In this document: in pieces, positions 9,351 to 51,197 of the stretch
How the letters are laid out: each line of letters opens with the position of its first letter
How positions within the stretch are numbered: position 1 is the stretch's first letter
Origin: Nemertoderma westbladi
Lineage: Eukaryota; Animalia; Xenacoelomorpha
Direction: 5' to 3'
DNA length: 64,000 nt
Assembly (NCBI GenBank): GCA_032718475.1
Contig: JAUCBJ010008420.1
Location: forward strand, 35,897 to 99,896
Notes under the pieces: generated by a model
Told to the model about the DNA's origin: nothing
Database searches by the model: none
Seen by the model: the letters and a program-made list of their open reading frames with translations, nothing else
Made by a program: the position numbers and the translations under genes

Positions 9351-9419
9351 ATGTGACTGATCTAGAGTAGCTCTGTGATCCGTGCAATAATATTCATTCA
9401 TATCTTTGACATCAAACGG

Positions 9420-17370: not shown

Positions 17371-18269
17371 AAGATTTTGTGGTATTTTATAAAAACACTA
17401 GCTACAATATTAAAACAGTACATACCATTGAAAACACTAGCTACCACAAACATTTGTTTTTATTTTCTTTAAAACATTTTTTTTTTCACATGTAACTAGC
17501 CAAAATATATCAAGAACATAAATCAATAGCCCAAAACATTATGTTTTGGTATTTTTTGGTATTTTGATATTTTTGGATGTCAAACCAAAAACAGCTATTA
17601 TGAAAGGCAGAATAATGGTGACACGTGCAACACTAGTACCAGTAACACTTTACAGTGAACTGTACAAAAATCGAAATAATTTCCATCTAGTGCTAAATCT
17701 ACCCATCCATTGTTCGCTGTAAAAACAATTAAAAAATAGATTAATGAAACGCCTGGCAGTATTTAGCTAGCTATATTTGTTTTTAGCTACAGCTCTACGG
17801 TACTGGTATGGGCGAAATAAATATTATTCTAGAATAATTAACTTGATATGAATAATTTGCCTCCATACCGTTATCCTATAATCGATTCTTAACACAACAC
17901 AAATACACATCCAAATAAATACATAGCTACATTTATTATTTGTTTTATTTTAGATACTGCAATATTATACTTTATATTAGCCAATCAACTGCGCTTGACA
18001 ACTGTTGCTGTGTTATGGCTGACGTCACTCGTGCAGTTTTCTGAAACGGCCTGATTTTTCGATGTTGCTAATTTTGCGTTTTAAAATTGCTATAACTCGG
18101 CAAATATTAATTTTTTTGAAGTAAAATTGCTCTCTGGGGTTTTTTCACATGCTCTTTCACATGAAACCAAAGAAAACTCGAAAAAAAATTTCCGAGTCGT
18201 CTACCCCATTGTATGCATAAATGTTAATAGCAGTAAGTTTTTATTATTTTCCTTTACTTATATTTGCAG

Positions 18270-18359
18270 ATAAAAAATCTTCGAAACACGTCTGTAAGTT
18301 CTGTGGTCGAGGTTGTGCGAAACCAAGTGTTCTCGAAAAGCACATCCGTAGTCACACAG
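18270..18359 (+). CDS. shn: Schnurri/HIVEP-like ZF transcription factor, internal exon A (ZF1)
   Basis: tttgcag|ATAAA...CACACAG|gttggt; translates [29 protein letters not shown], the first finger of the N-terminal HIVEP/Schnurri pair. Phase 1-1. Confidence 0.9.
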
Positions 18360-18830
18360 GTTGGTTGCTATGTATTAGAGTGAATGATGGATGGATGGAT
18401 GGGCACGGATGGGTTGGTGTACGTAGTACTGAAGAGCGAGTCAAGCAGTACTTCCAATGGGTAGCACTATAAGGCTGTTAAATGTTTGACTCATGAATAT
18501 ATACAAACTATTAGGAATTATATTTATTTATTTATAAAGCACGTTATAAGTAAATAAACCTTACCGGTAGGTGTGTTGTGTTAGTACCAAAGTATGTAAA
18601 AAACTAAAAAGACCTAGACGTTGCATGCAATCAGTGATCAGCTGACAGCAGCCAGCTGATCGGCAGGTTTCGCCCCGCAGCTGAAGGCATTCTCGGGAGG
18701 CCAAGCCAGGAAATGTAGAGAGAAATTCACAACATAGTACATAATAAATATTCACAATATAATACATAATAAATATAATTCACATTTCACAATATTATAC
18801 AAACATGTAAAATTAAATTCTGTCATTCGT

Positions 18831-21800
18831 TCTCTGTTATTCAGGAGAACGTCCTTACCCTTGCCTTCCTTGCGGGCTTTCATTGTTCTGTTTTTCAGGA
18901 GAACGTCCTTACCCTTGCGTTCCTTGCGGACTTTCATTGTTCTGTTTTTCAGGAGAACGTCCTTACCCTTGCGTTCCTTGCGGGCTTTCATTGTTCTGTT
19001 TTTCAGGAGAACGTCCTTACCCTTGCCTTCCTTGCGGACTTTCATTGTTCTGTTTTTCAGGAGAACGTCCTTACCCTTGCCTTCCTTGCGGGCTTTCATT
19101 GTTCTGTTTTTCAGGAGAACGTCCTTACCCTTGCCTTCCTTGCGGGCTTTCATTGTTCTGTTTTTCAGGAGAACGTCCTTACCCTTGCCTTCCTTGCGGA
19201 CTTTCATTGTTCTGTTATTCAGGAGAACGTCCTTACCCTTGCCTTCCTTGCGGGCTTTCATTGTTCTGTTTTTCAGGAGAACGTCCTTACCCTTGCCTTC
19301 CTTGCGGGCTTTCATTGTTCTGTTTTTCAGGAGAACGTCCTTACCCTTGCCTTCCTTGCGGGCTTTCATTGTTCTGTTTTTCAGGAGAACGTCCTTACCC
19401 TTGCCTTCCTTGCGGGCTTTCATTGTTCTGTTTTTCAGGAGAACGTCCTTACCCTTGCGTTCCTTGCGGGCTTTCATTGTTCTGTTTTTCAGGAGAACGT
19501 CCTTACCCTTGCCTTCCTTGCGGGCTTTCATTGTTCTGTTTTTCAGGAGAACGTCCTTACCCTTGCCTTCCTTGCGGGCTTTCATTGTTCTGTTTTTCAG
19601 GAGAACGTCCTTACCCTTGCCTTCCTTGCGGGCTTTCATTGTTCTGTTTTTCAGGAGAACGTCCTTACCCTTGCCTTCCTTGCGGACTTTCATTGTTCTG
19701 TTATTCAGGAGAACGTCCTTACCCTTGCCTTCCTTGCGGGCTTTCATTGTTCTGTTTTTCAGGAGAACGTCCTTACCCTTGCCTTCCTTGCGGGCTTTCA
19801 TTGTTCTGTTTTTCAGGAGAACGTCCTTACCCTTGCCTTCCTTGCGGACTTTCATTGTTCTGTTATTCAGGAGAACGTCCTTACCCTTGCCTTCCTTGCG
19901 GGCTTTCATTGTTCTGTTTTTCAGGAGAACGTCCTTACCCTTGCCTTCCTTGCGGGCTTTCATTGTTCTGTTTTTCAGGAGAACGTCCTTACCCTTGCCT
20001 TCCTTGCGGACTTTCATTGTTCTGTTTTTCAGGAGAACGTCCTTACCCTTGCCTTCCTTGCGGGCTTTCATTGTTCTGTTTTTCAGGAGAACGTCCTTAC
20101 CCTTGCCTTCCTTGCGGGCTTTCATTGTTCTGTTTTTCAGGAGAACGTCCTTACCCTTGCCTTCCTTGCGGACTTTCATTGTTCTGTTTTTCAGGAGAAC
20201 GTCCTTACCCTTGCCTTCCTTGCGGGCTTTCATTGTTCTGTTTTTCAGGAGAACGTCCTTACCCTTGCCTTCCTTGCGGACTTTCATTGTTCTGTTTTTC
20301 AGGAGAACGTCCTTACCCTTGCCTTCCTTGCGGACTTTCATTGTTCTGTTATTCAGGAGAACGTCCTTACCCTTGCCTTCCTTGCGGACTTTCATTGTTC
20401 TGTTTTTCAGGAGAACGTCCTTACCCTTGCCTTCCTTGCGGGCTTTCATTGTTCTGTTTTTCAGGAGAACGTCCTTACCCTTGCCTTCCTTGCGGACTTT
20501 CATTGTTCTGTTATTCAGGAGAACGTCCTTACCCTTGCCTTCCTTGCGGACTTTCATTGTTCTGTTTTTCAGGAGAACGTCCTTACCCTTGCGTTCCTTG
20601 CGGGCTTTCATTGTTCTGTTTTTCAGGAGAACGTCCTTACCCTTGCCTTCCTTGCGGACTTTCATTGTTCTGTTTTTCAGGAGAACGTCCTTACCCTTGC
20701 CTTCCTTGCGGACTTTCATTGTTCTGTTTTTCAGGAGAACGTCCTTACCCTTGCCTTCCTTGCGGGCTTTCATTGTTCTGTTTTTCAGGAGAACGTCCTT
20801 ACCCTTGCCTTCCTTGCGGGCTTTCATTGTTCTGTTTTTCAGGAGAACGTCCTTACCCTTGCCTTCCTTGCGGGCTTTCATTGTTCTGTTTTTCAGGAGA
20901 ACGTCCTTACCCTTGCGTTCCTTGCGGGCTTTCATTGTTCTGTTTTTCAGGAGAACGTCCTTACCCTTGCCTTCCTTGCGGACTTTCATTGTTCTGTTTT
21001 TCAGGAGAACGTCCTTACCCTTGCCTTCCTTGCGGACTTTCATTGTTCTGTTTTTCAGGAGAACGTCCTTACCCTTGCCTTCCTTGCGGGCTTTCATTGT
21101 TCTGTTTTTCAGGAGAACGTCCTTACCCTTGCCTTCCTTGCGGGCTTTCATTGTTCTGTTTTTCAGGAGAACGTCCTTACCCTTGCGTTCCTTGCGGACT
21201 TTCATTGTTCTGTTTTTCAGGAGAACGTCCTTACCCTTGCGTTCCTTGCGGGCTTTCATTGTTCTGTTTTTCAGGAGAACGTCCTTACCCTTGCGTTCCT
21301 TGCGGACTTTCATTGTTCTGTTTTTCAGGAGAACGTCCTTACCCTTGCGTTCCTTGCGGACTTTCATTGTTCTGTTTTTCAGGAGAACGTCCTTACCCTT
21401 GCGTTCCTTGCGGGCTTTCATTGTTCTGTTTTTCAGGAGAACGTCCTTACCCTTGCCTTCCTTGCGGACTTTCATTGTTCTGTTTTTCAGGAGAACGTCC
21501 TTACCCTTGCCTTCCTTGCGGACTTTCATTGTTCTGTTTTTCAGGAGAACGTCCTTACCCTTGCCTTCCTTGCGGGCTTTCATTGTTCTGTTTTTCAGGA
21601 GAACGTCCTTACCCTTGCCTTCCTTGCGGGCTTTCATTGTTCTGTTTTTCAGGAGAACGTCCTTACCCTTGCCTTCCTTGCGGGCTTTCATTGTTCTGTT
21701 TTTCAGGAGAACGTCCTTACCCTTGCGTTCCTTGCGGGCTTTCATTGTTCTGTTTTTCAGGAGAACGTCCTTACCCTTGCCTTCCTTGCGGACTTTCATT

Positions 21801-23798
21801 GTTCTGTTTTTCAGGAGAACGTCCTTACCCTTGCCTTCCTTGCGGACTTTCATTGTTCTGTTTTTCAGGAGAACGTCCTTACCCTTGCCTTCCTTGCGGG
21901 CTTTCATTGTTCTGTTTTTCAGGAGAACGTCCTTACCCTTGCCTTCCTTGCGGGCTTTCATTGTTCTGTTTTTCAGGAGAACGTCCTTACCCTTGCGTTC
22001 CTTGCGGACTTTCATTGTTCTGTTTTTCAGGAGAACGTCCTTACCCTTGCCTTCCTTGCGGGCTTTCATTGTTCTGTTTTTCAGGAGAACGTCCTTACCC
22101 TTGCCTTCCTTGCGGGCTTTCATTGTTCTGTTTTTCAGGAGAACGTCCTTACCCTTGCCTTCCTTGCGGGCTTTCATTGTTCTGTTTTTCAGGAGAACGT
22201 CCTTACCCTTGCCTTCCTTGCGGGCTTTCATTGTTCTGTTTTTCAGGAGAACGTCCTTACCCTTGCGTTCCTTGCGGACTTTCATTGTTCTGTTTTTCAG
22301 GAGAACGTCCTTACCCTTGCCTTCCTTGCGGGCTTTCATTGTTCTGTTTTTCAGGAGAACGTCCTTACCCTTGCCTTCCTTGCGGACTTTCATTGTTCTG
22401 TTTTTCAGGAGAACGTCCTTACCCTTGCCTTCCTTGCGGACTTTCATTGTTCTGTTTTTCAGGAGAACGTCCTTACCCTTGCGTTCCTTGCGGACTTTCA
22501 TTGTTCTGTTTTTCAGGAGAACGTCCTTACCCTTGCCTTCCTTGCGGGCTTTCATTGTTCTGTTTTTCAGGAGAACGTCCTTACCCTTGCCTTCCTTGCG
22601 GGCTTTCATTGTTCTGTTTTTCAGGAGAACGTCCTTACCCTTGCCTTCCTTGCGGGCTTTCATTGTTCTGTTTTTCAGGAGAACGTCCTTACCCTTGCGT
22701 TCCTTGCGGGCTTTCATTGTTCTGTTTTTCAGGAGAACGTCCTTACCCTTGCCTTCCTTGCGGGCTTTCATTGTTCTGTTTTTCAGGAGAACGTCCTTAC
22801 CCTTGCGTTCCTTGCGGACTTTCATTGTTCTGTTTTTCAGGAGAACGTCCTTACCCTTGCCTTCCTTGCGGGCTTTCATTGTTCTGTTTTTCAGGAGAAC
22901 GTCCTTACCCTTGCGTTCCTTGCGGGCTTTCATTGTTCTGTTTTTCAGGAGAACGTCCTTACCCTTGCCTTCCTTGCGGGCTTTCATTGTTCTGTTTTTC
23001 AGGAGAACGTCCTTACCCTTGCGTTCCTTGCGGACTTTCATTGTTCTGTTTTTCAGGAGAACGTCCTTACCCTTGCCTTCCTTGCGGGCTTTCATTGTTC
23101 TGTTTTTCAGGAGAACGTCCTTACCCTTGCGTTCCTTGCGGGCTTTCATTGTTCTGTTTTTCAGGAGAACGTCCTTACCCTTGCCTTCCTTGCGGGCTTT
23201 CATTGTTCTGTTTTTCAGGAGAACGTCCTTACCCTTGCGTTCCTTGCGGGCTTTCATTGTTCTGTTTTTCAGGAGAACGTCCTTACCCTTGCCTTCCTTG
23301 CGGGCTTTCATTGTTCTGTTTTTCAGGAGAACGTCCTTACCCTTGCGTTCCTTGCGGGCTTTCATTGTTCTGTTTTTCAGGAGAACGTCCTTACCCTTGC
23401 CTTCCTTGCGGGCTTTCATTGTTCTGTTTTTCAGGAGAACGTCCTTACCCTTGCGTTCCTTGCGGACTTTCATTGTTCTGTTTTTCAGGAGAACGTCCTT
23501 ACCCTTGCCTTCCTTGCGGGCTTTCATTGTTCTGTTTTTCAGGAGAACGTCCTTACCCTTGCGTTCCTTGCGGACTTTCATTGTTCTGTTTTTCAGGAGA
23601 ACGTCCTTACCCTTGCGTTCCTTGCGGGCTTTCATTGTGCTGTTTTTCAGGAGAACGTCCTTACCCTTGCCTTCCTTGCGGGCTTTCATTGTTCTGTTTT
23701 TCAGGAGAACGTCCTTACCCTTGCGTTCCTTGCGGACTTTCATTGTTCTGTTTTTCAGGAGAACGTCCTTACCCTTGCCTTCCTTGCGGACTTTCATT
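18831..23798 (+). repeat. 54-bp tandem array (92 acceptor copies); unit is a 3' splice site plus the first 40 nt of exon B
   Basis: Unit gttctgtttttcag|GAGAACGTCCTTACCCTTGC(C/G)TTCCTTGCGG(G/A)CTTTCATT. First AG at 18843-18844, last at 23757-23758; distance 4914 = 91 x 54. No indels. Confidence 0.97.
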
Positions 23799-23919
23799 TA
23801 AGACGAAATCCAACCTTTATAAACACGAGAAGAGCCACGCACACGCTGGTAAGATGGTAGATGATGACGAGGATATTAGTGCTAGCGCTACAGAGAGTGG
23901 AGATGAGCCCGTTTTACCA
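23759..23919 (+). CDS. shn: Schnurri/HIVEP-like exon B (ZF2 plus acidic stretch), using the last acceptor of the array
   Basis: Translates (G)[53 protein letters not shown]|gttagt; [10 protein letters not shown] is diagnostic of HIVEP/Schnurri ZF2. An alternative donor G|gtaaga at 23849 is possible. Confidence 0.85.
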
Positions 23920-25317: not shown

Positions 25318-25477
25318 GAACCCAGTATTTATTACTCGGACGATGTAAGTTTCCCCAAGACGCAGACATCCACACCGATCGCATTAACAAGCACACCACG
25401 ACTTCGGGAAGCTCTCGGCTCTCATTCCAACTCTATGTACATTCCCACTTCGACTCTGTCTACAACCATTGCACTGG
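25318..25477 (+). CDS. shn: Schnurri/HIVEP-like exon C (Ser/Thr-rich linker)
   Basis: gtgtttttcag|GAACCC...CACTGG|gttagt, open frame EPSIYYSDDVSFPKTQTSTPIALTSTPRLREALGSHSNSMYIPTSTLSTTIAL. Phase 0-1 bridges exon B to exon D exactly. Confidence 0.65.
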
Positions 25478-33213: not shown

Positions 33214-36200
33214 ACATGGATTCCCGTCGCTACCAGCAGACACCCCAAGTTCTCCACCGCCACTACAACCCCTACCTCCAACAACAACCCACGGTGATTA
33301 GCGGACACGTCGCCTATAGCAACCCCGTTACCATGGCCACCGTCGTGGGCTCCACTAACTGCGGGAGTGCGACCCGACAGACTGTGCAACCGCTGGACCC
33401 CCACAAACACCTCCCCAACTACCTGACTCTCTATGACCGGAGCGGTTTCATCCCCTCCCTATCTGAACCCACCACCAAACCGAATTTAATTAACAAGGCC
33501 GTAGATTACTACATGAATAAATCTGATGGATTGGATAGTCGGAGCAATGCTTCTGCTATCCACCATCGCATCCATGGCAACCCTTCTGGAAGCCATGGAA
33601 ATCACCCCGCAGCCCGTAGTAACCATCCTGGTGTCCATGGTATGCCCCCGGGTATGCATAGCAATCCTCTTGGTATCCATGGTAACCATCCCGGTATCCA
33701 TGCCAACGCATCTAACTCGGACCTCCACGCCAAGGTCCCGACCTCCTTCAGTACCACCAGCCTGGTTTCCTTTCCCGATGGACTCTCGGGCGCCCCCTTG
33801 TGGCCTGTGGCGGCGACAGTCCCGGCCCCTACCTCCCCTCGCGCCGCCAGCAAGTACAACCGCCCTCTAGTGGCGGCCACAGACGTCTACCAGCGGAGCA
33901 TCACCCTGGGTACGAGCGGTCGCTACGCGACGGAGGTTGCCAATGCGACGGGTTTGTCCCCCCGGGGATCCGCCATCGACCAGCAGGGTATATCGGAAAG
34001 GATCAAGTACTTGATCAACACAAACCACGAGATTGTGAACACCAACCAGAAGCAGATAGACAGTGTGAGACCGCGTCGGGTCTCGGCCTCCCGTCGTGGA
34101 AGTGTCGACAAACCTGGCGAGTCCCGGCTGCGAATCGTTACCATGGCAACTGCTCCTGTGCAACAGAACGACCTTAATGTGATATCGACCCCCGCGGCGT
34201 TTAACACCTCGTCTTCGGTTATCCGAAGTCTGTTACTGAAGAAGGAACCTGCACAACTGGAGGAACCCCCAGTACCCGTCTATCCAGCCATCATCACTTC
34301 CGGTTATCAGATGATTGTCACTTCTGGTTGTCAGACAGTTGTCCCTTCCGGTTATCAGTCTGATGTCACTTCCGGGTTTAATACAGTCGTCACTTCATCT
34401 TCCCAAACACGCGGTTTTACCTGTTCAATGTGTGGAACGGAATTCCACAGTGGCTCTACACTTCTCACCCATCAGAAATTCTATTGCTCATCGGCGAAAA
34501 TCGAAACCACCGACCGACGATTGGTGGCGCCACAACCTTTAGTTTTCTCTGACATCCCTGATCGAACAGCGATTAGCCGATCTGTGCCTCTAACTAAGAT
34601 CATTAAAGTTGAAGATCCCAATGTGCCATCGGTTGCGAGCGAACAAAACAAATCCATTCCATCCACATCTCATACCTTGCCTTTCTCAATTTCTGTTAGC
34701 TCCATAGGGCCAATAACTGCCATCTCCACCAATTCATCCGTTAAAGAGGTTCTCAACCCAAAGATGAAGTTCTACCGTAAAATGCAGGCTGAAACTGCGG
34801 AACGTGAAGCAGCCAAGAAGAATGCCTTGGCAGAGCAAACTACTAAACTGTTGCCGCAGAAATCATTAACAGTGAAGTTGCCTCTTTTGCCTAGGAAACG
34901 TTGTTTCAGTGAAAGCGCTCTTGGTCTATCGGCTCGCAAGCGGGATCGCAAGAAAACCAAATTGGTGCGGGTCAATCAAGTACTTAGGATCCCGACTAAA
35001 GCTTACCCTCACTCCCTGGTGCTGAACGAGGTTGAAAAGCACCTGTTGGTCTTCACTAGCAGTCCCTGTAAGAAACCAGACACCAACACCTCAGATGATC
35101 ACCATTACATCACGGATCTCGTCTCTGCGAGCCCCGACAGCCCTCCAACAGACCTGCAGCATCTCTGTCGGTTGACTTTCTGTTGTCTCACAAACCCACA
35201 GTCCATAACTACAGTGCAGAAGAGCGTTGCCCTTTCTATGTACTCTAACTGGATTGTCGGCAGTACCACCATGCCCCTCCCCCTTGGACTATCTCCCACA
35301 GAGCACCTGAGTTTGTACAACTCCAAACAACGTGTGCGCTCTAGAATTTACTCTGTCGCTGTTATACAACACCCAGAGATTCTCACTCCATCCAGTATGT
35401 GGAAGCATTACAAGAAAGCTGAACCGGCTGCACAGGTTGAGTCGAAACTCACCAAAGCCACAGAGATATTCGAGGGTGGTTACAAATCAAACGAGACATA
35501 CGTTTATGTGCGTGGGCGTGGGAGGGGCAAGTATGTGTGCAAGGAGTGTGGGATCAGGTGTAAGAAACCTAGCATGTTGCGGAAACATATCAGATCTCAT
35601 CTCGATCTCAGGCCTCATCATTGTCCTTCATGCAACTTCTCCTTCAAGACTAAAGGCAATCTCACGAAACATTTGAAGTCGAAGACTCATAGTAAGCGGG
35701 TTAACTCAGAGTGTAGTATGACGAGTTTGGATGCCGATGACACGGGCTCCGTTTGCAGTGCCGACGAGGAACATCCGTTTAGCGACGCCGCTGACTCTGA
35801 TTCCGAATCGTCTGGCTCGGATTCCGATTCCGCAGAGCGGTTGGCCGATCCTGCAGGGAGCATGGCGTTCGTGTTGCGACCAGGAGGCAGTGATCGCACC
35901 GCACGTCGGTTGAGAAGCTACAGCGAGTCACATCTAGATAAGTTAATTGCTCAGCGACAGAAACATGAAGAAGTAAACAAAAAGGGTAAGCGGACTCATC
36001 ATTCCAGAACTTCAGTATTTAGTTACGAGTTACAACGTAGCAAATCGAATCGGGCAACCCCTTCGGGTGGTTTTCTAGAAAATACGCCGTTTGAAATTCT
36101 TTCTACTGGTATCACAAGTGTGGCGATTTGTAGCACGTTATCTTACTCGACGACCACCAGTACTTTAAACTCTACGTTGTGCGATAGTAATCGCACAGTG

Positions 36201-39200
36201 CCGCTGATACAGACGAGTAAATCGCATCCCTATGTCACCTACCAGCACAAGAAGTTCTCCGCCATCGATACACGAGTGAGTACTCCTGCTGACGTCACTG
36301 TATCGGATCATCGAGTGGGGCACTCAGTCACTGACGCTCAGACAGAGTATTCGGGCGCGACGCGCAGGAAGTTGACTCCCATCCCATTAGTTCCTCGCAA
36401 TGAGCAGCGTGTGGGTCGTGATGAGCAGTTTGCGATACCAAGTCGCGACGAACTCGTTGTTACAACGGTATCTCCCGATGAACGGTTTGCGGGTCGCGAT
36501 TCACGGTTCGTCAGTCTTGATGAGCGGATTGCAACAACAACTCGAGATGAGCGGTTGTCTGGCTACCATGTGGTTGCTGCAGACTGCTCGACGCCATCCC
36601 CCGTGGCTTCAGAATCCACCCTTCACACCGCCACCCGGTTATCCACAGCCCCTGCCACCTTTCCATCCGAACATGTGGCTGTTACACACCACGTTGCAGA
36701 GGCACCCAAACCGTTTGTCCCACAAGAGCAAAAGATAGAGCGGGTATTGGGAGGTGGGCACCATGCCCTGCGCCCAAATGCCCCCACCCTGCCGCCCCAC
36801 ATACAAGCCATCCCGTTGCAGTACTACTTACAGAACTACTACTCACCTGCACTCGCATACCAACACTATCAACATTATCCAACCCTCAAACACCACTACA
36901 TCGCACCATCCAGCAGTGCGACACACCAATATAACAACCGACGTTTGGACACACCTTACACTGTGGCCCCCCTCCACGACTATCAGACTCTGGTAAACGG
37001 TTCCTCAGCTCTGCTCCAACCAGTGTTCCAATCCAACCGGACATTCGTGCCCCAGACTTTCCCTGTAGCCGCCTACCCCCATGGCCACATGGCCAATGAG
37101 CACCCAGTTACTACCTACATGCCAGCTAGCATCTATCTGTCTCATCTTTCTGCTGTTCAACAAACAGGACACACTAGAGTGGATGCGAAGTTGCCCATCG
37201 GTTCAAAGTTACCCGGAGAATCGCACGTGGAGGGATTTGGTCGTGGTGTAGCTGGTGTTGAGTCTCGTAGGCGTGTCGATGTCCAGGCAGAACCCAGTAT
37301 GGTCCGCGGCGATTCCGGTGTGGTCCGATCTGAAGACAGTATTGTCCGAGTTGACTCTGGAGTGGTCCGAGTTGACCCAGGAATGGTCCGAGCTGATTCT
37401 GGAATTGTCCGACTCGATTCAGGAATTGTGCGATCTGACGCCGGTATGGTCCGAGTTGACCCAGGACTAGTCCGAATTGACCCAGGATTGATCCGAGCTG
37501 ATTCTGGAATGGTACGAGGTGACTCAGGAATGCTCCGTACGGAATCCGCCATGCGTACTGAGTCATCACGTCAGTCCAACGACTCCGGCACAATTCAGTG
37601 CAGTTTGTGTGGCCACCGTGGCCCGGACGAGTCGGACATGCAGCGCCACTACCGGGACGTCCACGGAAGTCAACCAGCCCGCATCCACGGTTGCTATGAC
37701 TGCAACGTATCTTTCCGTTCCCGCGGACACCTCCTCAAACACGAGCGTAGCCAGACTCACCTATCGCGTCTCGAGTCGGTAACTGTAGTTACTTCATCCA
37801 CGGACCCGCGCCCCTTCAAGTGCAATGGATGTAAAACTGCATTCCGTATCCCGGGCCACCTCGCCAAACATCTCCGATCAAAATGTCACGCCAACATGTT
37901 GTCGCGCTACGGGAAACCACCGTCGATGGACGCCAGCGATCTGTGTATTGGTAAGGACCAGCTGGGGGACTTGGATCCGGGCGATTCAGACATATCCGGT
38001 AGTGATTATGAGAGCGATAGTTTCGCCGACGAGTCCTCTCCGACCAGCAGTTACGCCGCCAGTACCTACTCGGTGATCCGTTCCCCGAGAGGAGCGCTCA
38101 CTCCCAGTGGCTACTCCGCCCCCTCTGGATACACACCAGGTGTCCACACCACCACCGGTTATACATCAGGTACCCCTAGTGGCTATATTTCAGTTCCCCT
38201 TGGTGGTTTTTCCTCAGCCACTGCTGATGGCTACACATCCGCAATTAAAAACAGTTTTGCTAGCGCGACTAACGCCAGTGACGCGCTGGGAAGGGATAAT
38301 TTAATGACTTACAGCGGCAATAATGCCGTGAGTAGCAGCACTGCCGCATCTGTAGGTCTGGTGGCCGTTAATTCAGTCCCTTCCTACACAAGGGCCCCAC
38401 CTGACAGTATTCTGCATCGATCCCTCACAGTGAGTCCGCGGCACCGAGCACATCCTGTCCACGGATCTCTACAGAATATCAGACTGAACCCGACCTGGGA
38501 CCCGCCAACGCGAACCATCCCTTCCCTGATCGCTATGCCACCTTTCCAGTTGTCGGGACGACGCTCGGCTCAGTTCCATAGCGGCACGGTTACCATGGCA
38601 GCCGAGTACAAACCCAGCGACGAGGCGGCCCCAATCCACCGCACCGAGAACAAACACCACGTGTCGCCGAGTGTTGGAGTCTCCGTCACCGCGGGCTGGT
38701 TGGCCCACGATGGGGGCAGTACTGGGGATCGGCCGCATTCACATCCAAACATCGCAGCTGATCCCCTCCCCGTTCCCAAAGAAATATCTGTGTCGGTTGA
38801 TTCCAGAGCACGCAGCGCTCCTTTGCGCAATTCAGTGGTTCGAGAAGGAATCTTGAATATAGGTTTTGGGCAGGAATCCGGTATCTACAAGCGCCTCCAT
38901 TCCCTGTCCGATTCCGATATCGCGGAAGGTGAGACTCCGTTGCGGAATCTGTCTCAGACACTGAGTGTCCCGGACCTCTGCACACAGGCGCTCCCAGCCC
39001 CGGAGCTCACAGGAGAACCATCGATGGGTGGTAGGGAAGCGTCTCAGATAGACCCCAGCCAACCCAATCGCTGCCCCCAGTGCCATAAACTGTTTAAGAA
39101 TGCGGGATATGTCCGTAAACACATCGAGACGGTTCACATCAACCGCAAACAATTCAAGTGCTCCGAACAAGAGTGCAATAGGGAATACTCGAGCAAGGAA

Positions 39201-39208
39201 GCCCTCAG
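33214..39208 (+). CDS. shn: Schnurri/HIVEP-like giant exon D (about 6 kb)
   Basis: Lies within the 2031-aa ORF; bounded by ttttccag|ACATGG and CTCAG|gttggt. Contains the C2HC finger CSMCG..THQKFYC; the hallmark FEGGYKSNETYVYVRGRGRGKYVCKECGIRCKKPSMLRKHIRSH..FKTKGNLTKHLKSKTH pair with an acidic tract; the Schnurri-type C-terminal triplet including DPRPFKC..C..AFRIPGHLAKHLRSK.H; and the start of an extra finger cluster. Confidence 0.95.
37290..37560 (+). repeat. Degenerate 21-bp coding repeat, about 12 x D(S/P)G(M/I/V/L)VRx
   Basis: Protein reads MVRGDSGVVRSEDSIVRVDSGVVRVDPGMVRADSGIVRLDSG... Confidence 0.8.
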
Positions 39209-39455: not shown

Positions 39456-39614
39456 GTACCACATCATCACCCACCAACGAGTAAAGCCCCATCAGTGTGA
39501 GGATTGTTCCAGAACATTCGCTTCCCTCTCCCAACTCAAACTGCATATGAGCAGCCATGTCGCCGATCGGCCATGGGTCTGTAAATATTGCTCCAAAAGC
39601 TTTAAATTACAGAG
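39456..39614 (+). CDS. shn: Exon E (extra C2H2 fingers)
   Basis: ttctttag|GTACCAC...CAGAG|gtaatt. Completes CSEQECNREYSSKEALR|YHIITH, then encodes CEDCSRTFASLSQLKLHMSSH and CKYCSKSFKLQ. Phase 2-2. Confidence 0.9.
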
Positions 39615-40392: not shown

Positions 40393-40525
40393 TACACTCA
40401 AACAACACACCCAGAGCCACTCCGAATCTGGTGACGATTTCACTACATCGCATAGTTGCAAGATTTGTTCGGAATCATTCCCGACTTCGCAGCTGCTCAT
40501 TCTACATTTTAGGAGACACACCCAG
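40393..40525 (+). CDS. shn: Exon F (extra C2H2 fingers), ending at the first donor of the 50-bp array
   Basis: ccatttag|TACACTC...ACCCAG|gtaagt; translates (S)TLKQHTQSHSESGDDFTTSHSCKICSESFPTSQLLILHFRRHTQ and completes the finger begun in exon E. Phase 2-0. Confidence 0.88.
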
Positions 40526-43500
40526 GTAAGTGTAATGTTAAGTGGTGAGCATTCTGTTTTAGGAAACACACCCAGGTAAGTGTAATGTTAAGTGGTGAGC
40601 ATTCTGTTTTAGGAAACACACCCAGGTAAGTGTAATGTTAAGTGGTGAGCATTCTGTTTTAGGAAACACACCCAGGTAAGTGTAATGTTAAGTGGTGAGC
40701 ATTCTGTTTTAGGAAACACACCCAGGTAAGTGTAATGTTAAGTGGTGAGCATTCTGTTTTAGGAAACACACCCAGGTAAGTGTAATGTTAAGTGGTGAGC
40801 ATTCTGTTTTAGGAAACACACCCAGGTAAGTGTAATGTTAAGTGGTGAGCATTCTGTTTTAGGAAACACACCCAGGTAAGTGTAATGTTAAGTGGTGAGC
40901 ATTCTGTTTTAGGAAACACACCCAGGTAAGTGTAATGTTAAGTGGTGAGCATTCTGTTTTAGGAAACACACCCAGGTAAGTGTAATGTTAAGTGGTGAGC
41001 ATTCTGTTTTAGGAAACACACCCAGGTAAGTGTAATGTTAAGTGGTAAGCATTCTGTTTTAGGAAACACACCCAGGTAAGTGTAATGTTAAGTGGTGAGC
41101 ATTCTGTTTTAGGAAACACACCCAGGTAAGTGTAATGTTAAGTGGTGAGCATTCTGTTTTAGGAAACACACCCAGGTAAGTGTAATGTTAAGTGGTGAGC
41201 ATTCTGTTTTAGGAAACACACCCAGGTAAGTGTAATGTTAAGTGGTGAGCATTCTGTTTTAGGAAACACACCCAGGTAAGTGTAATGTTAAGTGGTGAGC
41301 ATTCTGTTTTAGGAAACACACCCAGGTAAGTGTAATGTTAAGTGGTAAGCATTCTGTTTTAGGAAACACACCCAGGTAAGTGTAATGTTAAGTGGTGAGC
41401 ATTCTGTTTTAGGAAACACACCCAGGTAAGTGTAATGTTAAGTGGTGAGCATTCTGTTTTAGGAAACACACCCAGGTAAGTGTAATGTTAAGTGGTGAGC
41501 ATTCTGTTTTAGGAAACACACCCAGGTAAGTGTAATGTTAAGTGGTGAGCATTCTGTTTTAGGAAACACACCCAGGTAAGTGTAATGTTAAGTGGTGAGC
41601 ATTCTGTTTTAGGAAACACACCCAGGTAAGTGTAATGTTAAGTGGTGAGCATTCTGTTTTAGGAAACACACCCAGGTAAGTGTAATGTTAAGTGGTGAGC
41701 ATTCTGTTTTAGGAAACACACCCAGGCAAGTGTAATGTTAAGTGGTGAGCATTCTGTTTTAGGAAACACACCCAGGTAAGTGTAATGTTAAGTGGTGAGC
41801 ATTCTGTTTTAGGAAACACACCCAGGTAAGTGTAATGTTAAGTGGTGAGCATTCTGTTTTAGGAAACACACCCAGGTAAGTGTAATGTTAAGTGGTGAGC
41901 ATTCTGTTTTAGGAAACACACCCAGGTAAGTGTAATGTTAAGTGGTGAGCATTCTGTTTTAGGAAACACACCCAGGTAAGTGTAATGTTAAGTGGTGAGC
42001 ATTCTGTTTTAGGAAACACACCCAGGTAAGTGTAATGTTAAGTGGTAAGCATTCTGTTTTAGGAAACACACCCAGGTAAGTGTAATGTTAAGTGGTGAGC
42101 ATTCTGTTTTAGGAAACACACCCAGGTAAGTGTAATGTTAAGTGGTGAGCATTCTGTTTTAGGAAACACACCCAGGTAAGTGTAATGTTAAGTGGTGAGC
42201 ATTCTGTTTTAGGAAACACACCCAGGTAAGTGTAATGTTAAGTGATAAGCATTCTGTTTTAGGAAACACACCCAGGTAAGTGTAATGTTAAGTGGTGAGC
42301 ATTCTGTTTTAGGAAACACACCCAGGTAAGTGTAATGTTAAGTGGTGAGCATTCTGTTTTAGGAAACACACCCAGGTAAGTGTAATGTTAAGTGGTGAGC
42401 ATTCTGTTTTAGGAAACACACCCAGGTAAGTGTAATGTTAAGTGATAAGCATTCTGTTTTAGGAAACACACCCAGGTAAGTGTAATGTTAAGTGGTGAGC
42501 ATTCTGTTTTAGGAAACACACCCAGGTAAGTGTAATGTTAAGTGGTGAGCATTCTGTTTTAGGAAACACACCCAGGTAAGTGTAATGTTAAGTGGTGAGC
42601 ATTCTGTTTTAGGAAACACACCCAGGTAAGTGTAATGTTAAGTGGTGAGCATTCTGTTTTAGGAAACACACCCAGGTAAGTGTAATGTTAAGTGGTGAGC
42701 ATTCTGTTTTAGGAAACACACCCAGGTAAGTGTAATGTTAAGTGGTGAGCATTCTGTTTTAGGAAACACACCCAGGTAAGTGTAATGTTAAGTGGTGAGC
42801 ATTCTGTTTTAGGAAACACACCCAGGTAAGTGTAATGTTAAGTGGTGAGCATTCTGTTTTAGGAAACACACCCAGGTAAGTGTAATGTTAAGTGGTGAGC
42901 ATTCTGTTTTAGGAAACACACCCAGGTAAGTGTAATGTTAAGTGGTGAGCATTCTGTTTTAGGAAACACACCCAGGTAAGTGTAATGTTAAGTGGTGAGC
43001 ATTCTGTTTTAGGAAACACACCCAGGTAAGTGTAATGTTAAGTGGTGAGCATTCTGTTTTAGGAAACACACCCAGGTAAGTGTAATGTTAAGTGGTGAGC
43101 ATTCTGTTTTAGGAAACACACCCAGGTAAGTGTAATGTTAAGTGGTGAGCATTCTGTTTTAGGAAACACACCCAGGTAAGTGTAATGTTAAGTGGTGAGC
43201 ATTCTGTTTTAGGAAACACACCCAGGTAAGTGTAATGTTAAGTGGTGAGCATTCTGTTTTAGGAAACACACCCAGGTAAGTGTAATGTTAAGTGGTGAGC
43301 ATTCTGTTTTAGGAAACACACCCAGGTAAGTGTAATGTTAAGTGGTGAGCATTCTGTTTTAGGAAACACACCCAGGTAAGTGTAATGTTAAGTGGTAAGC
43401 ATTCTGTTTTAGGAAACACACCCAGGTAAGTGTAATGTTAAGTGGTGAGCATTCTGTTTTAGGAAACACACCCAGGTAAGTGTAATGTTAAGTGGTGAGC

Positions 43501-46500
43501 ATTCTGTTTTAGGAAACACACCCAGGTAAGTGTAATGTTAAGTGGTGAGCATTCTGTTTTAGGAAACACACCCAGGTAAGTGTAATGTTAAGTGATAAGC
43601 ATTCTGTTTTAGGAAACACACCCAGGTAAGTGTAATGTTAAGTGGTGAGCATTCTGTTTTAGGAAACACACCCAGGTAAGTGTAATGTTAAGTGGTGAGC
43701 ATTCTGTTTTAGGAAACACACCCAGGTAAGTGTAATGTTAAGTGGTGAGCATTCTGTTTTAGGAAACACACCCAGGTAAGTGTAATGTTAAGTGGTGAGC
43801 ATTCTGTTTTAGGAAACACACCCAGGTAAGTGTAATGTTAAGTGGTGAGCATTCTGTTTTAGGAAACACACCCAGGTAAGTGTAATGTTAAGTGGTGAGC
43901 ATTCTGTTTTAGGAAACACACCCAGGTAAGTGTAATGTTAAGTGGTGAGCATTCTGTTTTAGGAAACACACCCAGGTAAGTGTAATGTTAAGTGGTAAGC
44001 ATTCTGTTTTAGGAAACACACCCAGGTAAGTGTAATGTTAAGTGGTGAGCATTCTGTTTTAGGAAACACACCCAGGTAAGTGTAATGTTAAGTGGTGAGC
44101 ATTCTGTTTTAGGAAACACACCCAGGTAAGTGTAATGTTAAGTGGTGAGCATTCTGTTTTAGGAAACACACCCAGGTAAGTGTAATGTTAAGTGATAAGC
44201 ATTCTGTTTTAGGAAACACACCCAGGTAAGTGTAATGTTAAGTGGTGAGCATTCTGTTTTAGGAAACACACCCAGGTAAGTGTAATGTTAAGTGGTGAGC
44301 ATTCTGTTTTAGGAAACACACCCAGGTAAGTGTAATGTTAAGTGGTGAGCATTCTGTTTTAGGAAACACACCCAGGTAAGTGTAATGTTAAGTGGTGAGC
44401 ATTCTGTTTTAGGAAACACACCCAGGTAAGTGTAATGTTAAGTGGTGAGCATTCTGTTTTAGGAAACACACCCAGGTAAGTGTAATGTTAAGTGGTGAGC
44501 ATTCTGTTTTAGGAAACACACCCAGGTAAGTGTAATGTTAAGTGGTGAGCATTCTGTTTTAGGAAACACACCCAGGTAAGTGTAATGTTAAGTGATAAGC
44601 ATTCTGTTTTAGGAAACACACCCAGGTAAGTGTAATGTTAAGTGGTGAGCATTCTGTTTTAGGAAACACACCCAGGCAAGTGTAATGTTAAGTGGTGAGC
44701 ATTCTGTTTTAGGAAACACACCCAGGTAAGTGTAATGTTAAGTGGTGAGCATTCTGTTTTAGGAAACACACCCAGGCAAGTGTAATGTTAAGTGGTGAGC
44801 ATTCTGTTTTAGGAAACACACCCAGGTAAGTGTAATGTTAAGTGGTGAGCATTCTGTTTTAGGAAACACACCCAGGTAAGTGTAATGTTAAGTGGTAAGC
44901 ATTCTGTTTTAGGAAACACACCCAGGTAAGTGTAATGTTAAGTGATAAGCATTCTGTTTTAGGAAACACACCCAGGTAAGTGTAATGTTAAGTGGTGAGC
45001 ATTCTGTTTTAGGAAACACACCCAGGTAAGTGTAATGTTAAGTGGTAAGCATTCTGTTTTAGGAAACACACCCAGGTAAGTGTAATGTTAAGTGATAAGC
45101 ATTCTGTTTTAGGAAACACACCCAGGTAAGTGTAATGTTAAGTGGTGAGCATTCTGTTTTAGGAAACACACCCAGGCAAGTGTAATGTTAAGTGATAAGC
45201 ATTCTGTTTTAGGAAACACACCCAGGTAAGTGTAATGTTAAGTGGTGAGCATTCTGTTTTAGGAAACACACCCAGGCAAGTGTAATGTTAAGTGGTGAGC
45301 ATTCTGTTTTAGGAAACACACCCAGGTAAGTGTAATGTTAAGTGATAAGCATTCTGTTTTAGGAAACACACCCAGGTAAGTGTAATGTTAAGTGGTGAGC
45401 ATTCTGTTTTAGGAAACACACCCAGGTAAGTGTAATGTTAAGTGGTGAGCATTCTGTTTTAGGAAACACACCCAGGCAAGTGTAATGTTAAGTGATAAGC
45501 ATTCTGTTTTAGGAAACACACCCAGGTAAGTGTAATGTTAAGTGGTGAGCATTCTGTTTTAGGAAACACATCCAGGTAAGTGTAATGTTAAGTGGTGAGC
45601 ATTCTGTTTTAGGAAACACACCCAGGTAAGTGTAATGTTAAGTGGTGAGCATTCTGTTTTAGGAAACACACCCAGGTAAGTGTAATGTTAAGTGATAAGC
45701 ATTCTGTTTTAGGAAACACACCCAGGTAAGTGTAATGTTAAGTGGTGAGCATTCTGTTTTAGGAAACACACCCAGGCAAGTGTAATGTTAAGTGGTGAGC
45801 ATTCTGTTTTAGGAAACACACCCAGGTAAGTGTAATGTTAAGTGGTGAGCATTCTGTTTTAGGAAACACACCCAGGCAAGTGTAATGTTAAGTGGTGAGC
45901 ATTCTGTTTTAGGAAACACACCCAGGTAAGTGTAATGTTAAGTGGTGAGCATTCTGTTTTAGGAAACACACCCAGGTAAGTGTAATGTTAAGTGGTGAGC
46001 ATTCTGTTTTAGGAAACACACCCAGGCAAGTGTAATGTTAAGTGGTGAGCATTCTGTTTTAGGAAACACACCCAGGTAAGTGTAATGTTAAGTGGTGAGC
46101 ATTCTGTTTTAGGAAACACACCCAGGTAAGTGTAATGTTAAGTGGTGAGCATTCTGTTTTAGGAAACACACCCAGGTAAGTGTAATGTTAAGTGGTGAGC
46201 ATTCTGTTTTAGGAAACACACCCAGGTAAGTGTAATGTTAAGTGGTGAGCATTCTGTTTTAGGAAACACACCCAGGTAAGTGTAATGTTAAGTGGTGAGC
46301 ATTCTGTTTTAGGAAACACACCCAGGTAAGTGTAATGTTAAGTGATAAGCATTCTGTTTTAGGAAACACACCCAGGTAAGTGTAATGTTAAGTGGTGAGC
46401 ATTCTGTTTTAGGAAACACACCCAGGCAAGTGTAATGTTAAGTGGTGAGCATTCTGTTTTAGGAAACACACCCAGGTAAGTGTAATGTTAAGTGGTGAGC

Positions 46501-49500
46501 ATTCTGTTTTAGGAAACACACCCAGGCAAGTGTAATGTTAAGTGGTGAGCATTCTGTTTTAGGAAACACACCCAGGTAAGTGTAATGTTAAGTGATAAGC
46601 ATTCTGTTTTAGGAAACACACCCAGGTAAGTGTAATGTTAAGTGGTGAGCATTCTGTTTTAGGAAACACACCCAGGCAAGTGTAATGTTAAGTGATAAGC
46701 ATTCTGTTTTAGGAAACACACCCAGGTAAGTGTAATGTTAAGTGGTGAGCATTCTGTTTAGGAAACACACCCAGGCAAGTGTAATGTTAAGTGGTGAGCA
46801 TTCTGTTTTAGGAAACACACCCAGGTAAGTGTAATGTTAAGTGATAAGCATTCTGTTTTAGGAAACACACCCAGGTAAGTGTAATGTTAAGTGGTGAGCA
46901 TTCTGTTTTAGGAAACACACCCAGGTAAGTGTAATGTTAAGTGGTGAGCATTCTGTTTTAGGAAACACACCCAGGCAAGTGTAATGTTAAGTGATAAGCA
47001 TTCTGTTTTAGGAAACACACCCAGGTAAGTGTAATGTTAAGTGGTGAGCATTCTGTTTTAGGAAACACACCCAGGTAAGTGTAATGTTAAGTGGTGAGCA
47101 CTGAGCATTCTGTTTTAGGAAACACACCCAGGTAAGTGTAATGTTAAGTGGTGAGCATTCTGTTTTAGGAAACACATCCAGGTAAGTGTAATGTTAAGTG
47201 GTGAGCATTCTGTTTTAGGAAACACACCCAGGTAAGTGTAATGTTAAGTGGTGAGCATTCTGTTTTAGGAAACACACCCAGGCAAGTGTAATGTTAAGTG
47301 ATAAGCATTCTGTTTTAGGAAACACACCCAGGTAAGTGTAATGTTAAGTGGTGAGCATTCTGTTTTAGGAAACACACCCAGGTAAGTGTAATGTTAAGTG
47401 GTGAGCATTCTGTTTTAGGAAACACACCCAGGCAAGTGTAATGTTAAGTGATAAGCATTCTGTTTTAGGAAACACACCCAGGCAAGTGTAATGTTAAGTG
47501 ATAAGCATTCTGTTTTAGGAAACACACCCAGGTAAGTGTAATGTTAAGTGGTGAGCATTCTGTTTTAGGAAACACACCCAGGTAAGTGTAATGTTAAGTG
47601 GTGAGCACTAAGCATTCTGTTTTAGGAAACACACCCAGGCAAGTGTAATGTTAAGTGATAAGCATTCTGTTTTAGGAAACACACCCAGGTAAGTGTAATG
47701 TTAAGTGGTGAGCATTCTGTTTTAGGAAACACACCCAGGCAAGTGTAATGTTAAGTGATAAGCATTCTGTTTTAGGAAACACACCCAGGTAAGTGTAATG
47801 TTAAGTGGTGAGCATTCTGTTTTAGGAAACACACCCAGGTAAGTGTAATGTTAAGTGGTGAGCATTCTGTTTTAGGAAACACACCCAGGCAAGTGTAATG
47901 TTAAGTGATAAGCATTCTGTTTTAGGAAACACACCCAGGCAAGTGTAATGTTAAGTGATAAGCATTCTGTTTTAGGAAACACACCCAGGTAAGTGTAATG
48001 TTAAGTGGTGAGCATTCTGTTTTAGGAAACACACCCAGGTAAGTGTAATGTTAAGTGGTGAGCACTGAGCATTCTGTTTTAGGAAACACACCCAGGTAAG
48101 TGTAATGTTAAGTGGTGAGCATTCTGTTTTAGGAAACACATCCAGGTAAGTGTAATGTTAAGTGGTGAGCATTCTGTTTTAGGAAACACACCCAGGCAAG
48201 TGTAATGTTAAGTGATAAGCATTCTGTTTTAGGAAACACACCCAGGTAAGTGTAATGTTAAGTGGTGAGCATTCTGTTTTAGGAAACACATCCAGGTAAG
48301 TGTAATGTTAAGTGGTGAGCATTCTGTTTTAGGAAACACACCCAGGTAAGTGTAATGTTAAGTGGTGAGCATTCTGTTTTAGGAAACACACCCAGGTAAG
48401 TGTAATGTTAAGTGATAAGCATTCTGTTTTAGGAAACACACCCAGGTAAGTGTAATGTTAAGTGGTGAGCATTCTGTTTTAGGAAACACACCCAGGCAAG
48501 TGTAATGTTAAGTGGTGAGCATTCTGTTTTAGGAAACACACCCAGGTAAGTGTAATGTTAAGTGGTGAGCATTCTGTTTTAGGAAACACACCCAGGCAAG
48601 TGTAATGTTAAGTGGTGAGCATTCTGTTTTAGGAAACACACCCAGGTAAGTGTAATGTTAAGTGGTGAGCATTCTGTTTTAGGAAACACACCCAGGTAAG
48701 TGTAATGTTAAGTGGTGAGCATTCTGTTTTAGGAAACACACCCAGGCAAGTGTAATGTTAAGTGGTGAGCATTCTGTTTTAGGAAACACACCCAGGTAAG
48801 TGTAATGTTAAGTGGTGAGCATTCTGTTTTAGGAAACACACCCAGGTAAGTGTAATGTTAAGTGGTGAGCATTCTGTTTTAGGAAACACACCCAGGTAAG
48901 TGTAATGTTAAGTGGTGAGCATTCTGTTTTAGGAAACACACCCAGGTAAGTGTAATGTTAAGTGGTGAGCATTCTGTTTTAGGAAACACACCCAGGTAAG
49001 TGTAATGTTAAGTGGTGAGCATTCTGTTTTAGGAAACACACCCAGGTAAGTGTAATGTTAAGTGATAAGCATTCTGTTTTAGGAAACACACCCAGGTAAG
49101 TGTAATGTTAAGTGGTGAGCATTCTGTTTTAGGAAACACACCCAGGCAAGTGTAATGTTAAGTGGTGAGCATTCTGTTTTAGGAAACACACCCAGGTAAG
49201 TGTAATGTTAAGTGGTGAGCATTCTGTTTTAGGAAACACACCCAGGCAAGTGTAATGTTAAGTGGTGAGCATTCTGTTTTAGGAAACACACCCAGGTAAG
49301 TGTAATGTTAAGTGATAAGCATTCTGTTTTAGGAAACACACCCAGGTAAGTGTAATGTTAAGTGGTGAGCATTCTGTTTTAGGAAACACACCCAGGCAAG
49401 TGTAATGTTAAGTGATAAGCATTCTGTTTTAGGAAACACACCCAGGTAAGTGTAATGTTAAGTGGTGAGCATTCTGTTTAGGAAACACACCCAGGCAAGT

Positions 49501-50583
49501 GTAATGTTAAGTGGTGAGCATTCTGTTTTAGGAAACACACCCAGGTAAGTGTAATGTTAAGTGATAAGCATTCTGTTTTAGGAAACACACCCAGGTAAGT
49601 GTAATGTTAAGTGGTGAGCATTCTGTTTTAGGAAACACACCCAGGTAAGTGTAATGTTAAGTGGTGAGCATTCTGTTTTAGGAAACACACCCAGGCAAGT
49701 GTAATGTTAAGTGATAAGCATTCTGTTTTAGGAAACACACCCAGGTAAGTGTAATGTTAAGTGGTGAGCACTGAGCATTCTGTTTTAGGAAACACACCCA
49801 GGTAAGTGTAATGTTAAGTGGTGAGCACTGAGCATTCTGTTTTAGGAAACACACCCAGGTAAGTGTAATGTTAAGTGGTGAGCATTCTGTTTTAGGAAAC
49901 ACATCCAGGTAAGTGTAATGTTAAGTGGTGAGCATTCTGTTTTAGGAAACACACCCAGGTAAGTGTAATGTTAAGTGGTGAGCATTCTGTTTTAGGAAAC
50001 ACACCCAGGCAAGTGTAATGTTAAGTGATAAGCATTCTGTTTTAGGAAACACACCCAGGTAAGTGTAATGTTAAGTGGTGAGCATTCTGTTTTAGGAAAC
50101 ACACCCATGTAAGTGTAATGTTAAGTGGTGAGCATTCTGTTTTAGGAAACACACCCAGGCAAGTGTAATGTTAAGTGATAAGCATTCTGTTTTAGGAAAC
50201 ACACCCAGGCAAGTGTAATGTTAAGTGATAAGCATTCTGTTTTAGGAAACACACCCAGGTAAGTGTAATGTTAAGTGGTGAGCATTCTGTTTTAGGAAAC
50301 ACACCCAGGTAAGTGTAATGTTAAGTGGTGAGCACTGAGCATTCTGTTTTAGGAAACACACCCAGGTAAGTGTAATGTTAAGTGGTGAGCATTCTGTTTT
50401 AGGAAACACATCCAGGTAAGTGTAATGTTAAGTGGTGAGCATTCTGTTTTAGGAAACACACCCAGGTAAGTGTAATGTTAAGTGGTGAGCATTCTGTTTT
50501 AGGAAACACACCCAGGCAAGTGTAATGTTAAGTGATAAGCATTCTGTTTTAGGAAACACACCCAGGTAAGTGTAATGTTAAGT
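40506..50583 (+). repeat. 50-bp tandem array (about 201 copies); unit is the end of exon F plus a 5' splice site
   Basis: Unit ttttag GAAACACACCCAG|gtaagtgtaatgttaagtggtgagcattctg. Donor positions run from 40526 to 50566 (10,040 bp; I count six +7 insertions and two -1 deletions, giving 200 intervals). Variants include ggcaag, gataag and tccagg. Confidence 0.97.
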
Positions 50584-50969: not shown

Positions 50970-51197
50970 GAGAACCACCAAACCTCTACCAACTACAGAT
51001 GTTCTACCTGCAAAAAGTTGTTCGTCGGAAAGTTACAATACAAACAGCACGGTTGCGTTGGCGGCAAGGATGGCGGTTTCAAGTCTAGAGGTGGCGGACA
51101 AGTGGGTTCATTCCAATGCGAGTACTGCTGCAAACTGTTTGCGAGTCAGTATGGGTTGCAGAGTCATTGTCGCACTGCCCATAAACGGGGACATGTG
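50970..51197 (+). CDS. shn: Exon G (two further zinc fingers)
   Basis: catttag|GAGAAC...CATGTG|gtaaga; translates ENHQTSTNYRCSTCKKLFVGKLQYKQHGC...FQCEYCCKLFASQYGLQSHCRTAHKRGHV. Phase 0-0, compatible with exon F. Confidence 0.85.

What the first reader, a model, noticed from the sequence alone, without database searches (positions are those of the whole stretch)
18831..23798. 92 tandem in-frame 3' splice sites: a potential length dial between zinc fingers 1 and 2
Seen: the unit is 54 bp (18 codons), has no stop in the exon frame and no indels, and every copy keeps ttcag|G. Splicing exon A to acceptor k gives an in-frame protein with (92-k) extra copies of GERPYPC(L/V)PCGLSLFC(F/Y)S, up to 1,638 aa of CxxC-rich repeat inserted inside the N-terminal DNA-binding finger pair. 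Established: splicing usually selects the first AG downstream of the branch point. Inference: the native branch region is most likely upstream of copy 1, so the long form is plausible, and only the last acceptor gives a canonical Schnurri.
Basis: partly seen in the sequence, partly recalled or inferred. Interest (0 to 1): 0.82.

Follow-up and report, generated by a model that had tools for sequence, protein, structure and literature searches.

The report
Splice-acceptor "mirage" repeat in Schnurri gene
In an animal's Schnurri/HIVEP gene the end of an intron plus the start of the next exon is repeated 92 times in reading frame, a repeat type already described in lancelets and humans; the cell likely splices to the last copy and makes the normal protein, so the proposed long zinc-finger spacer is possible on paper but probably rare, and the junction itself has not been seen in RNA.

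Summary
In detail: 92 acceptors at exact 54-nt spacing, no indels, open frame, up to 1,638 extra residues. Each unit is 14 nt of intron end plus 40 nt of exon start, a 'mirage' minisatellite as described in lancelets and humans. This scan has already noted many such arrays elsewhere in this genome (unchecked AI notes).

The dial reading is weak. The same gene carries a second array (201 x 50 nt) on a donor; it is out of frame, and only the exon-proximal site gives the full 2,902-residue frame. In-frame plus stop-free has about a 1-in-3 chance. Every unit has its own branch-like motifs. The finger linker is 7 residues in 153 of 159 homologues checked (6 unmatched). In the one run whose cover follows exon A, repeat depth is 0.63 of exon depth, against 20-39 in DNA-like runs.

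The exon A-B junction was not seen in any contig, so splicing to the last acceptor is inferred (0.72). A short ladder gets 0.17 and a long form 0.06. Because in-frame products would escape decay, this locus could measure true acceptor leakage.

The parts
18270..18359 (+). Exon A: zinc finger 1 up to H-T-G (phase 1), donor CAG|GTTGGT
   Evidence: run X4 cover inferred as 18269-18357 from bin means
18360..18844 (+). Unique intron part (485 nt) ending at the native-like acceptor of copy 1; holds a dispersed high-copy repeat at about 18500-18740
18833..23798 (+). Array 1: 92 x 54 nt; unit = 40 nt of exon B start + 14 nt of intron end with acceptor; acceptors at 18845 + 54(k-1)
23759..23919 (+). 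Exon B from the last acceptor: linker and zinc finger 2, acidic stretch; donor at 23919 in my model, or a strong alternative donor at 23848 (CTG|GTAAGA) whose phase would fit exon D directly
   Evidence: boundary choice inferred from frame
25318..25477 (+). Exon C (predicted from splice signals and frame)
33214..39208 (+). Exon D, 5,995 nt: single CCHC finger, second finger pair, finger triplet
39456..39614 (+). Exon E (C2H2 fingers)
40393..40525 (+). Exon F (C2H2 finger ending H-T-Q); its donor is copy 1 of array 2
40507..50583 (+). Array 2: 201 donor-site copies, mostly 50 nt (192 x 50, 6 x 57, 2 x 49), 166 of 201 with intact CAG|GTAAGT; stops in all three frames of the tandem unit
50970..51197 (+). 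Exon G (last fingers), in frame only from donor 1 among donors 1-4 tested
51469..53253 (+). Exon H, last coding exon, with a 30-nt coding repeat at 51648-52504

Best explanation
The array is a minisatellite made from the gene's own intron-exon border (14 nt of intron plus 40 nt of exon B, 92 copies), and the spliceosome likely picks the last acceptor by pairing it across the short exon with exon B's donor, so the other 91 copies would be removed as intron and the normal finger pair made. Shown: anatomy, frame, a second border array in the same gene, repeat turnover. Inferred: origin as a duplication at a short shared word (TCATT lies in both the native intron end and the exon at the unit junction; CATTCT does so for array 2), growth by unequal exchange or slippage, selection of the last acceptor by exon definition (exon of 161 or 90 nt against 5,075 nt for copy 1), and near-neutrality. 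The reading frame would be a 1-in-3 accident.
For: (1) Array 2 in the same gene is out of frame; donor 1 gives a 2,902-residue open frame, donor 2 stops at 2325 and donors 3-4 at 2250, so an intact protein needs the exon-proximal site there, although the last donor would give only a 404-nt intron. (2) Of possible duplications across this acceptor, 113 of 341 near the observed size (642 of 2736 overall) are in frame and stop-free; 4 of 6 frames of the array are open; shuffled units are stop-free 64% of the time. (3) The variable sites are 1 synonymous and 3 non-synonymous, against 39:111 for all single changes: no sign of protein-level selection, on few events. (4) Internal units have their own branch-like motifs. 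(5) The H-to-C linker is 7 residues in 153 of 159 homologues, with 6 unmatched and no other length (set dominated by vertebrates). (6) Run X4 covers 18269-18357, i.e. exon A and not the flanking unique intron, at depth 8.4, and the repeat at 5.3, a ratio of 0.63 against 20.6, 39.4 and 23.5 in X1, X2 and X3; a dominant long form from this allele would give about 34-60. If X4 is RNA the repeat is mostly spliced out; if it is DNA that animal has a short allele. (7) Precedent: lancelet mirages reported not to disturb splicing (PMC3087553; PMC3902484); the duplicated CBS intron 7/exon 8 junction is spliced at the distal site (PMC2630376); exons between long introns are included well only below about 500 nt (PMC9225289).
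Against: No contig shows the exon A-to-B junction. X4 holds a full head-to-tail 84-nt repeat contig, so if it is RNA some RNA contains at least one extra unit (pre-mRNA or upstream acceptor use). X4 is listed as 'DNA?', contig depth is a poor measure of expression, and its allele length is unknown. This gene apparently tolerates a 5,995-nt internal exon. Exon A to copy 1 is only 485 nt, and copy 1 is transcribed 4.9 kb before copy 92. In human data the upstream 3' splice-site preference is only reduced between long introns, and globin duplication experiments gave opposite results in two groups. Array 1 has no length variant in 91 units while array 2 has 8 in 200, a mild point for frame keeping.
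Confidence: 0.72

Rival explanations
1. Short ladder: acceptors 91, 90 and 89 (exon B of 215, 269, 323 nt) compete with acceptor 92 and are used in 10% or more of transcripts. The products are in frame, would escape nonsense-mediated decay, and would space finger 1 from finger 2 by 18, 36 or 54 residues, likely weakening DNA binding as WT1 +KTS does.
For: The acceptor sequence and branch-like motifs are the same in nearly all copies. In human IFI6 (6-16) and CBS intron 13, two neighbouring repeat donors are used besides the true one (PMC1557585). X4's repeat contig at 0.63 of exon A depth fits an average of under one extra unit per transcript. WT1 +KTS has weak DNA binding (PMC7140685).
Against: X4's repeat could equally be pre-mRNA or DNA; the human precedents are donors, and F7, LMNB2 and PDGF use only the true site; linker length is invariant in the homologues matched.
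Confidence: 0.17
2. Long form or regulated dial: exon A is spliced co-transcriptionally to copy 1 across 485 nt, or to any copy, giving a 5-kb exon and up to 1,638 residues of half-finger repeat between fingers 1 and 2 as a major or regulated product.
For: The frame is open from every acceptor tested; no indels; the intron-centric proximity rule favours the upstream acceptor (PMC9225289); a 6-kb exon exists in the gene; copy 1's AG is predicted more accessible than internal ones (unpaired 0.27-0.44 against 0.03-0.30).
Against: The repeat-to-exon depth in X4 is about 50-95 times lower than this predicts. The same rule applied to array 2 would truncate the protein. The unit has 3 Cys and no His, so it is not a finger. 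No half-finger tandem in the 150 best of 18,717 HMMER hits, which were all poly-finger proteins.
Confidence: 0.06
3. Assembly artefact: a few real copies inflated to 92.
For: Depth ratios of 20-39 are below the 34-86 expected for a homozygous 92-copy allele; no contig spans the array; X1 and X2 have no cover at 18740-18819.
Against: Non-periodic order of 6 unit types with a block duplication and polarity; the unit is at hundreds to over 1,400-fold word depth in three DNA-like runs from two samples, either of which may be the window's source.
Confidence: 0.05

Closest known systems
Lancelet 'mirage' minisatellites (globins BflGb6/BflGb9, PMC3087553, 9 passages read; PGBD5, PMC3902484, 4 passages read; Adh3 and troponin C only as cited there)
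   Same: Tandem copies of an intron-exon border with its splice signal; BflGb6 has the same layout (intron 3' end plus next exon's 5' part); both borders can be hit; turnover by tandem-repeat mechanisms; PGBD5 units of 60 and 108 nt are also multiples of three.
   Different: Copy number 92 and 201 here against 2-7 in the globin and PGBD5 cases read; near-identical units; the insert point is a C2H2 linker; organism not identified as a lancelet; splicing not shown here.
Human CBS 844ins68 (PMC2630376, one substantive passage read)
   Same: Duplicated intron end plus exon start; splicing strongly favours the distal site and gives normal mRNA.
   Different: Two copies, 68 nt, out of frame, so upstream use could be hidden by decay (my inference).
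Human donor VNTRs F7 IVS7, IFI6 (6-16), CBS IVS13, LMNB2, PDGF (PMC1557585, 11 passages read)
   Same: Direct analogue of array 2; the exon-proximal site is used, with at most two neighbours.
   Different: Donor side, 5-25 copies.
WT1 +KTS/-KTS (PMC7140685, passages read)
   Same: What an upstream acceptor would do: a splice choice lengthens the spacer between two DNA-binding fingers.
   Different: Three residues, shown to be functional and essential; here 18n residues from a repeat, with use not shown.
Schnurri / HIVEP1-3 (ZAS) transcription factors
   Same: Host gene: finger pair 1, single CCHC finger, finger pair 2, triplet; best hits named zinc finger protein 40/HIVEP.
   Different: Extra C-terminal fingers in exons D-G; the 5' end was not found in the window; no tree built.

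Membership tests
Mirage minisatellite | Tandem unit spans an exon-intron boundary of the host gene | tested here: met
   40 nt exon + 14 nt intron
Mirage minisatellite | Units repeat the splice signal | tested here: met
   92 of 92 CAG|G; array 2 has 166 of 201 intact donors
Mirage minisatellite | Tandem-repeat turnover (homogenised units, block duplications, polarity) | tested here: met
Mirage minisatellite | Length varies between alleles or individuals | tested here: inconclusive
   Depth ratios 20.6, 39.4, 23.5 and 0.63; contig depth is not copy number
Mirage minisatellite | Regular splicing is undisturbed | tested here: inconclusive
   No junction contig; only the indirect depth ratio in X4
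Schnurri/HIVEP | N-terminal finger pair with KPS-L-KH and [10 protein letters not shown], 7-residue linker | tested here: met
   (with acceptor 92)
Schnurri/HIVEP | Distant second finger pair and single CCHC finger | tested here: met
Schnurri/HIVEP | Orthology by phylogeny | not tested
   no tree built
Selected coding repeat / splice dial | Frame and open reading beyond chance | tested here: not met
   0.33 near this size, 0.235 overall; 4 of 6 frames open
Selected coding repeat / splice dial | Excess of synonymous over non-synonymous variants | tested here: inconclusive
   1:3 against 39:111 expected; only four sites
Selected coding repeat / splice dial | Repeat present in mature mRNA or protein | not testable with these tools
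   No run on record as RNA and no raw reads; no protein of this species found in three searches

The most novel reading that the evidence does not exclude
A length-variable repeat of the gene's own acceptor yields a stable in-frame ladder of Schnurri isoforms in which 18-residue half-finger units separate fingers 1 and 2: a WT1-KTS-like switch in DNA binding set by a minisatellite and by allele length, in a genome where giant arrays are seeded preferentially on splice sites.
Probability: 0.15. Interest if true: 0.7.

Novelty: new member of a known kind. Interest (0 to 1): 0.28.

Why it matters
As it most likely stands this is an unusually long example of a known, tolerated repeat. Its value is as a test bench: 92 near-identical acceptors, in frame and bar-coded by four variable sites, so mis-spliced products would not be erased by nonsense-mediated decay, and one long-read experiment would measure how strictly the spliceosome picks the exon-proximal acceptor over a first-come one 485 nt from the donor. 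It also adds to an open question: both giant non-coding arrays in this window sit on real splice sites (rough chance 0.0002), and the lancelet paper calls the mechanism unclear. If upstream acceptors are used, a repeat would tune a transcription factor's DNA-binding domain.

Tried and rejected
No whole genome is held, so a genome-wide count of in-frame against out-of-frame arrays was not possible. No RNA holder was listed; this is no evidence on expression. No contig of X1, X2, X4 or X5 showed a joint from 18359 to an acceptor, and X4 and X5 had no cover on unique exon B; the tool drops human-like contigs unannounced, so these holes are not evidence. Three protein searches found no protein of this species; a 4,500-residue long form lies outside the lengths searched. 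The HMMER search with three units plus exon B was swamped by poly-finger proteins. Local RNA folding did not favour acceptor 92 (AG unpaired 0.03-0.06, like internal copies), so structure is rejected as the selector. A 13-nt micro-exon reading of array 2 was dropped: its first copy is the true end of exon F and the spacers are 37 nt. Recursive re-splicing through GT dinucleotides in the unit was dropped: all three are poor donors. Early exon models had off-by-one and phase errors; one search is the one used. No fold or complex prediction was run, as it would not decide splicing. Six paper searches listed no paper on this locus or on a giant in-frame acceptor array; the library lacks most subscription papers, and no supplements were opened.

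Full report
Observation. The array is as described: 18833-23798, period 54, 92 copies, no indels, with 92 acceptors at exact spacing from 18845 to 23759. Each unit is the first 40 nt of exon B followed by 14 nt of intron end. After the 40 nt the last copy runs into unique exon B. Four sites vary among copies 1-91. The order of variants has a 12-unit block duplication (0 of 1000 shuffles) and polarity, so this is a turning-over minisatellite. Runs X1, X2 and X3 hold the unit at 20.6, 39.4 and 23.5 times the depth of neighbouring unique DNA. These are contig depths, not copy numbers; they lie below what a homozygous 92-copy allele predicts, and X1 and X2 may be the window's source.

Host gene. 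An eight-exon model from 18270 to 53253 gives one open frame of 2,902 residues with 14 finger-pattern matches when acceptor 92 is used. Best database hits are HIVEP / zinc finger protein 40 proteins. The 5' end was not found. Exon B may end at 23919 or at 23848. The linker between fingers 1 and 2 is 7 residues in 153 of the 159 proteins; 6 did not match the pattern. The 45 proteins were not checked.

A built-in control. The same gene has a second array, 201 copies of mostly 50 nt at 40507-50583, whose first copy is the donor of exon F. It is out of frame and carries stops. Donor 1 keeps the full frame; donor 2 stops at residue 2325 and donors 3 and 4 at 2250. So border arrays arise in this gene without coding value, and an intact protein needs the exon-proximal site even though the last donor would leave a 404-nt intron, much like the 485 nt from exon A to copy 1. 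Both arrays show a 5-6-nt word shared by intron and exon at the unit junction, which suggests an origin by microhomology; that step is inference.

Is the frame meaningful? Of possible duplications across this acceptor, 113 of 341 near the observed size and 642 of 2736 overall are in frame and stop-free. The strand has 6 A in 54 nt, so 4 of 6 frames are open. Variants are 1 synonymous to 3 non-synonymous against 39:111 expected.

Which acceptor? The branch-point argument does not single out copy 1: copies 2 and 92 have yUnAy at -42 and -17 with no AG in between, while copy 1 has one match at -56. PMC9225289 (parts 1-3 of 6 read) reports exon-centric choice when flanking introns exceed about 250 nt and poor inclusion of exons above about 500 nt, but for 3' sites the upstream preference is only reduced. 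Exon B would be 161 nt from acceptor 92, 215-323 nt from acceptors 91-89, and 5,075 nt from copy 1. Against me, the gene has a 5,995-nt internal exon, though with a 247-nt intron behind it.

Reads. No run is on record as RNA. X4, listed 'DNA?', covers 18269-18357 by bin arithmetic, matching exon A within 1-2 nt, with none on 18220-18259 or 18380-18499, which looks like spliced RNA. It also holds a head-to-tail 84-nt repeat contig at depth 5.3 against 8.4 for exon A. A dominant long form would give a ratio of about 34-60; 0.63 is seen. If X4 is RNA the repeat is mostly removed, though some RNA holds it; if it is DNA the allele is short. The junction itself was not seen, so this is a hint only.

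Known systems. Lancelet mirages (PMC3087553; PMC3902484), CBS 844ins68 (PMC2630376) and the human donor VNTRs (PMC1557585) describe the same kind of element, with the exon-proximal site used and at most two neighbours. I read passages only, and no supplements. Earlier AI notes list many such arrays in this genome, including out-of-frame acceptor arrays, and an in-frame case in another genome; I could not check them and do not count them as support.

Verdict. A real feature and a new member of a known kind. Last acceptor dominant 0.72, short in-frame ladder 0.17, long form or dial 0.06, inflated assembly 0.05. What remains interesting is that an in-frame array lets acceptor leakage be measured directly, and that both giant non-coding arrays in the window sit on splice sites (rough chance 0.0002) for no known reason.

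Noticed in passing
window 40507-50583: Second mirage in the same gene: 201 copies of exon F's end plus donor, 10 distinct units, out of frame.
   Followed up: yes
window 51648-52504: Coding tandem repeat, 30 nt x 28.6, giving a Thr/Ser-rich 10-residue unit in the last exon; smaller degenerate 21-nt coding repeats at 33619-33702 and 37344-37537.
   Followed up: partly
window 23848 and 23919: Two possible donors for exon B; the first would skip exon C in frame, the second includes it in frame.
   Followed up: partly
window 23805 and 23961: Run X2 differs from the window by a synonymous change in exon B and an intronic change; X3 shares the intronic one and has 3 differences in 195 nt, which suggests high heterozygosity.
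   Followed up: partly
window 60158-64000: Two long ORFs, the second with DUF1759 (E 8.5e-10), likely the gag region of a BEL/Pao retrotransposon (family link recalled).
   Followed up: partly
window 8111-16241: Several broken ORFs that look like decayed mobile elements; seven tested, no Pfam hit at E 0.01.
   Followed up: partly
window 17700-18219 and 18500-18739: High-copy dispersed repeats flank exon A; 17945-18200 resembles 13195-13400 on the opposite strand by eye.
   Followed up: no
protein P0042: A partial bird HIVEP2 record has the finger-2 start twice, 59 residues apart; possibly an annotation artefact.
   Followed up: no
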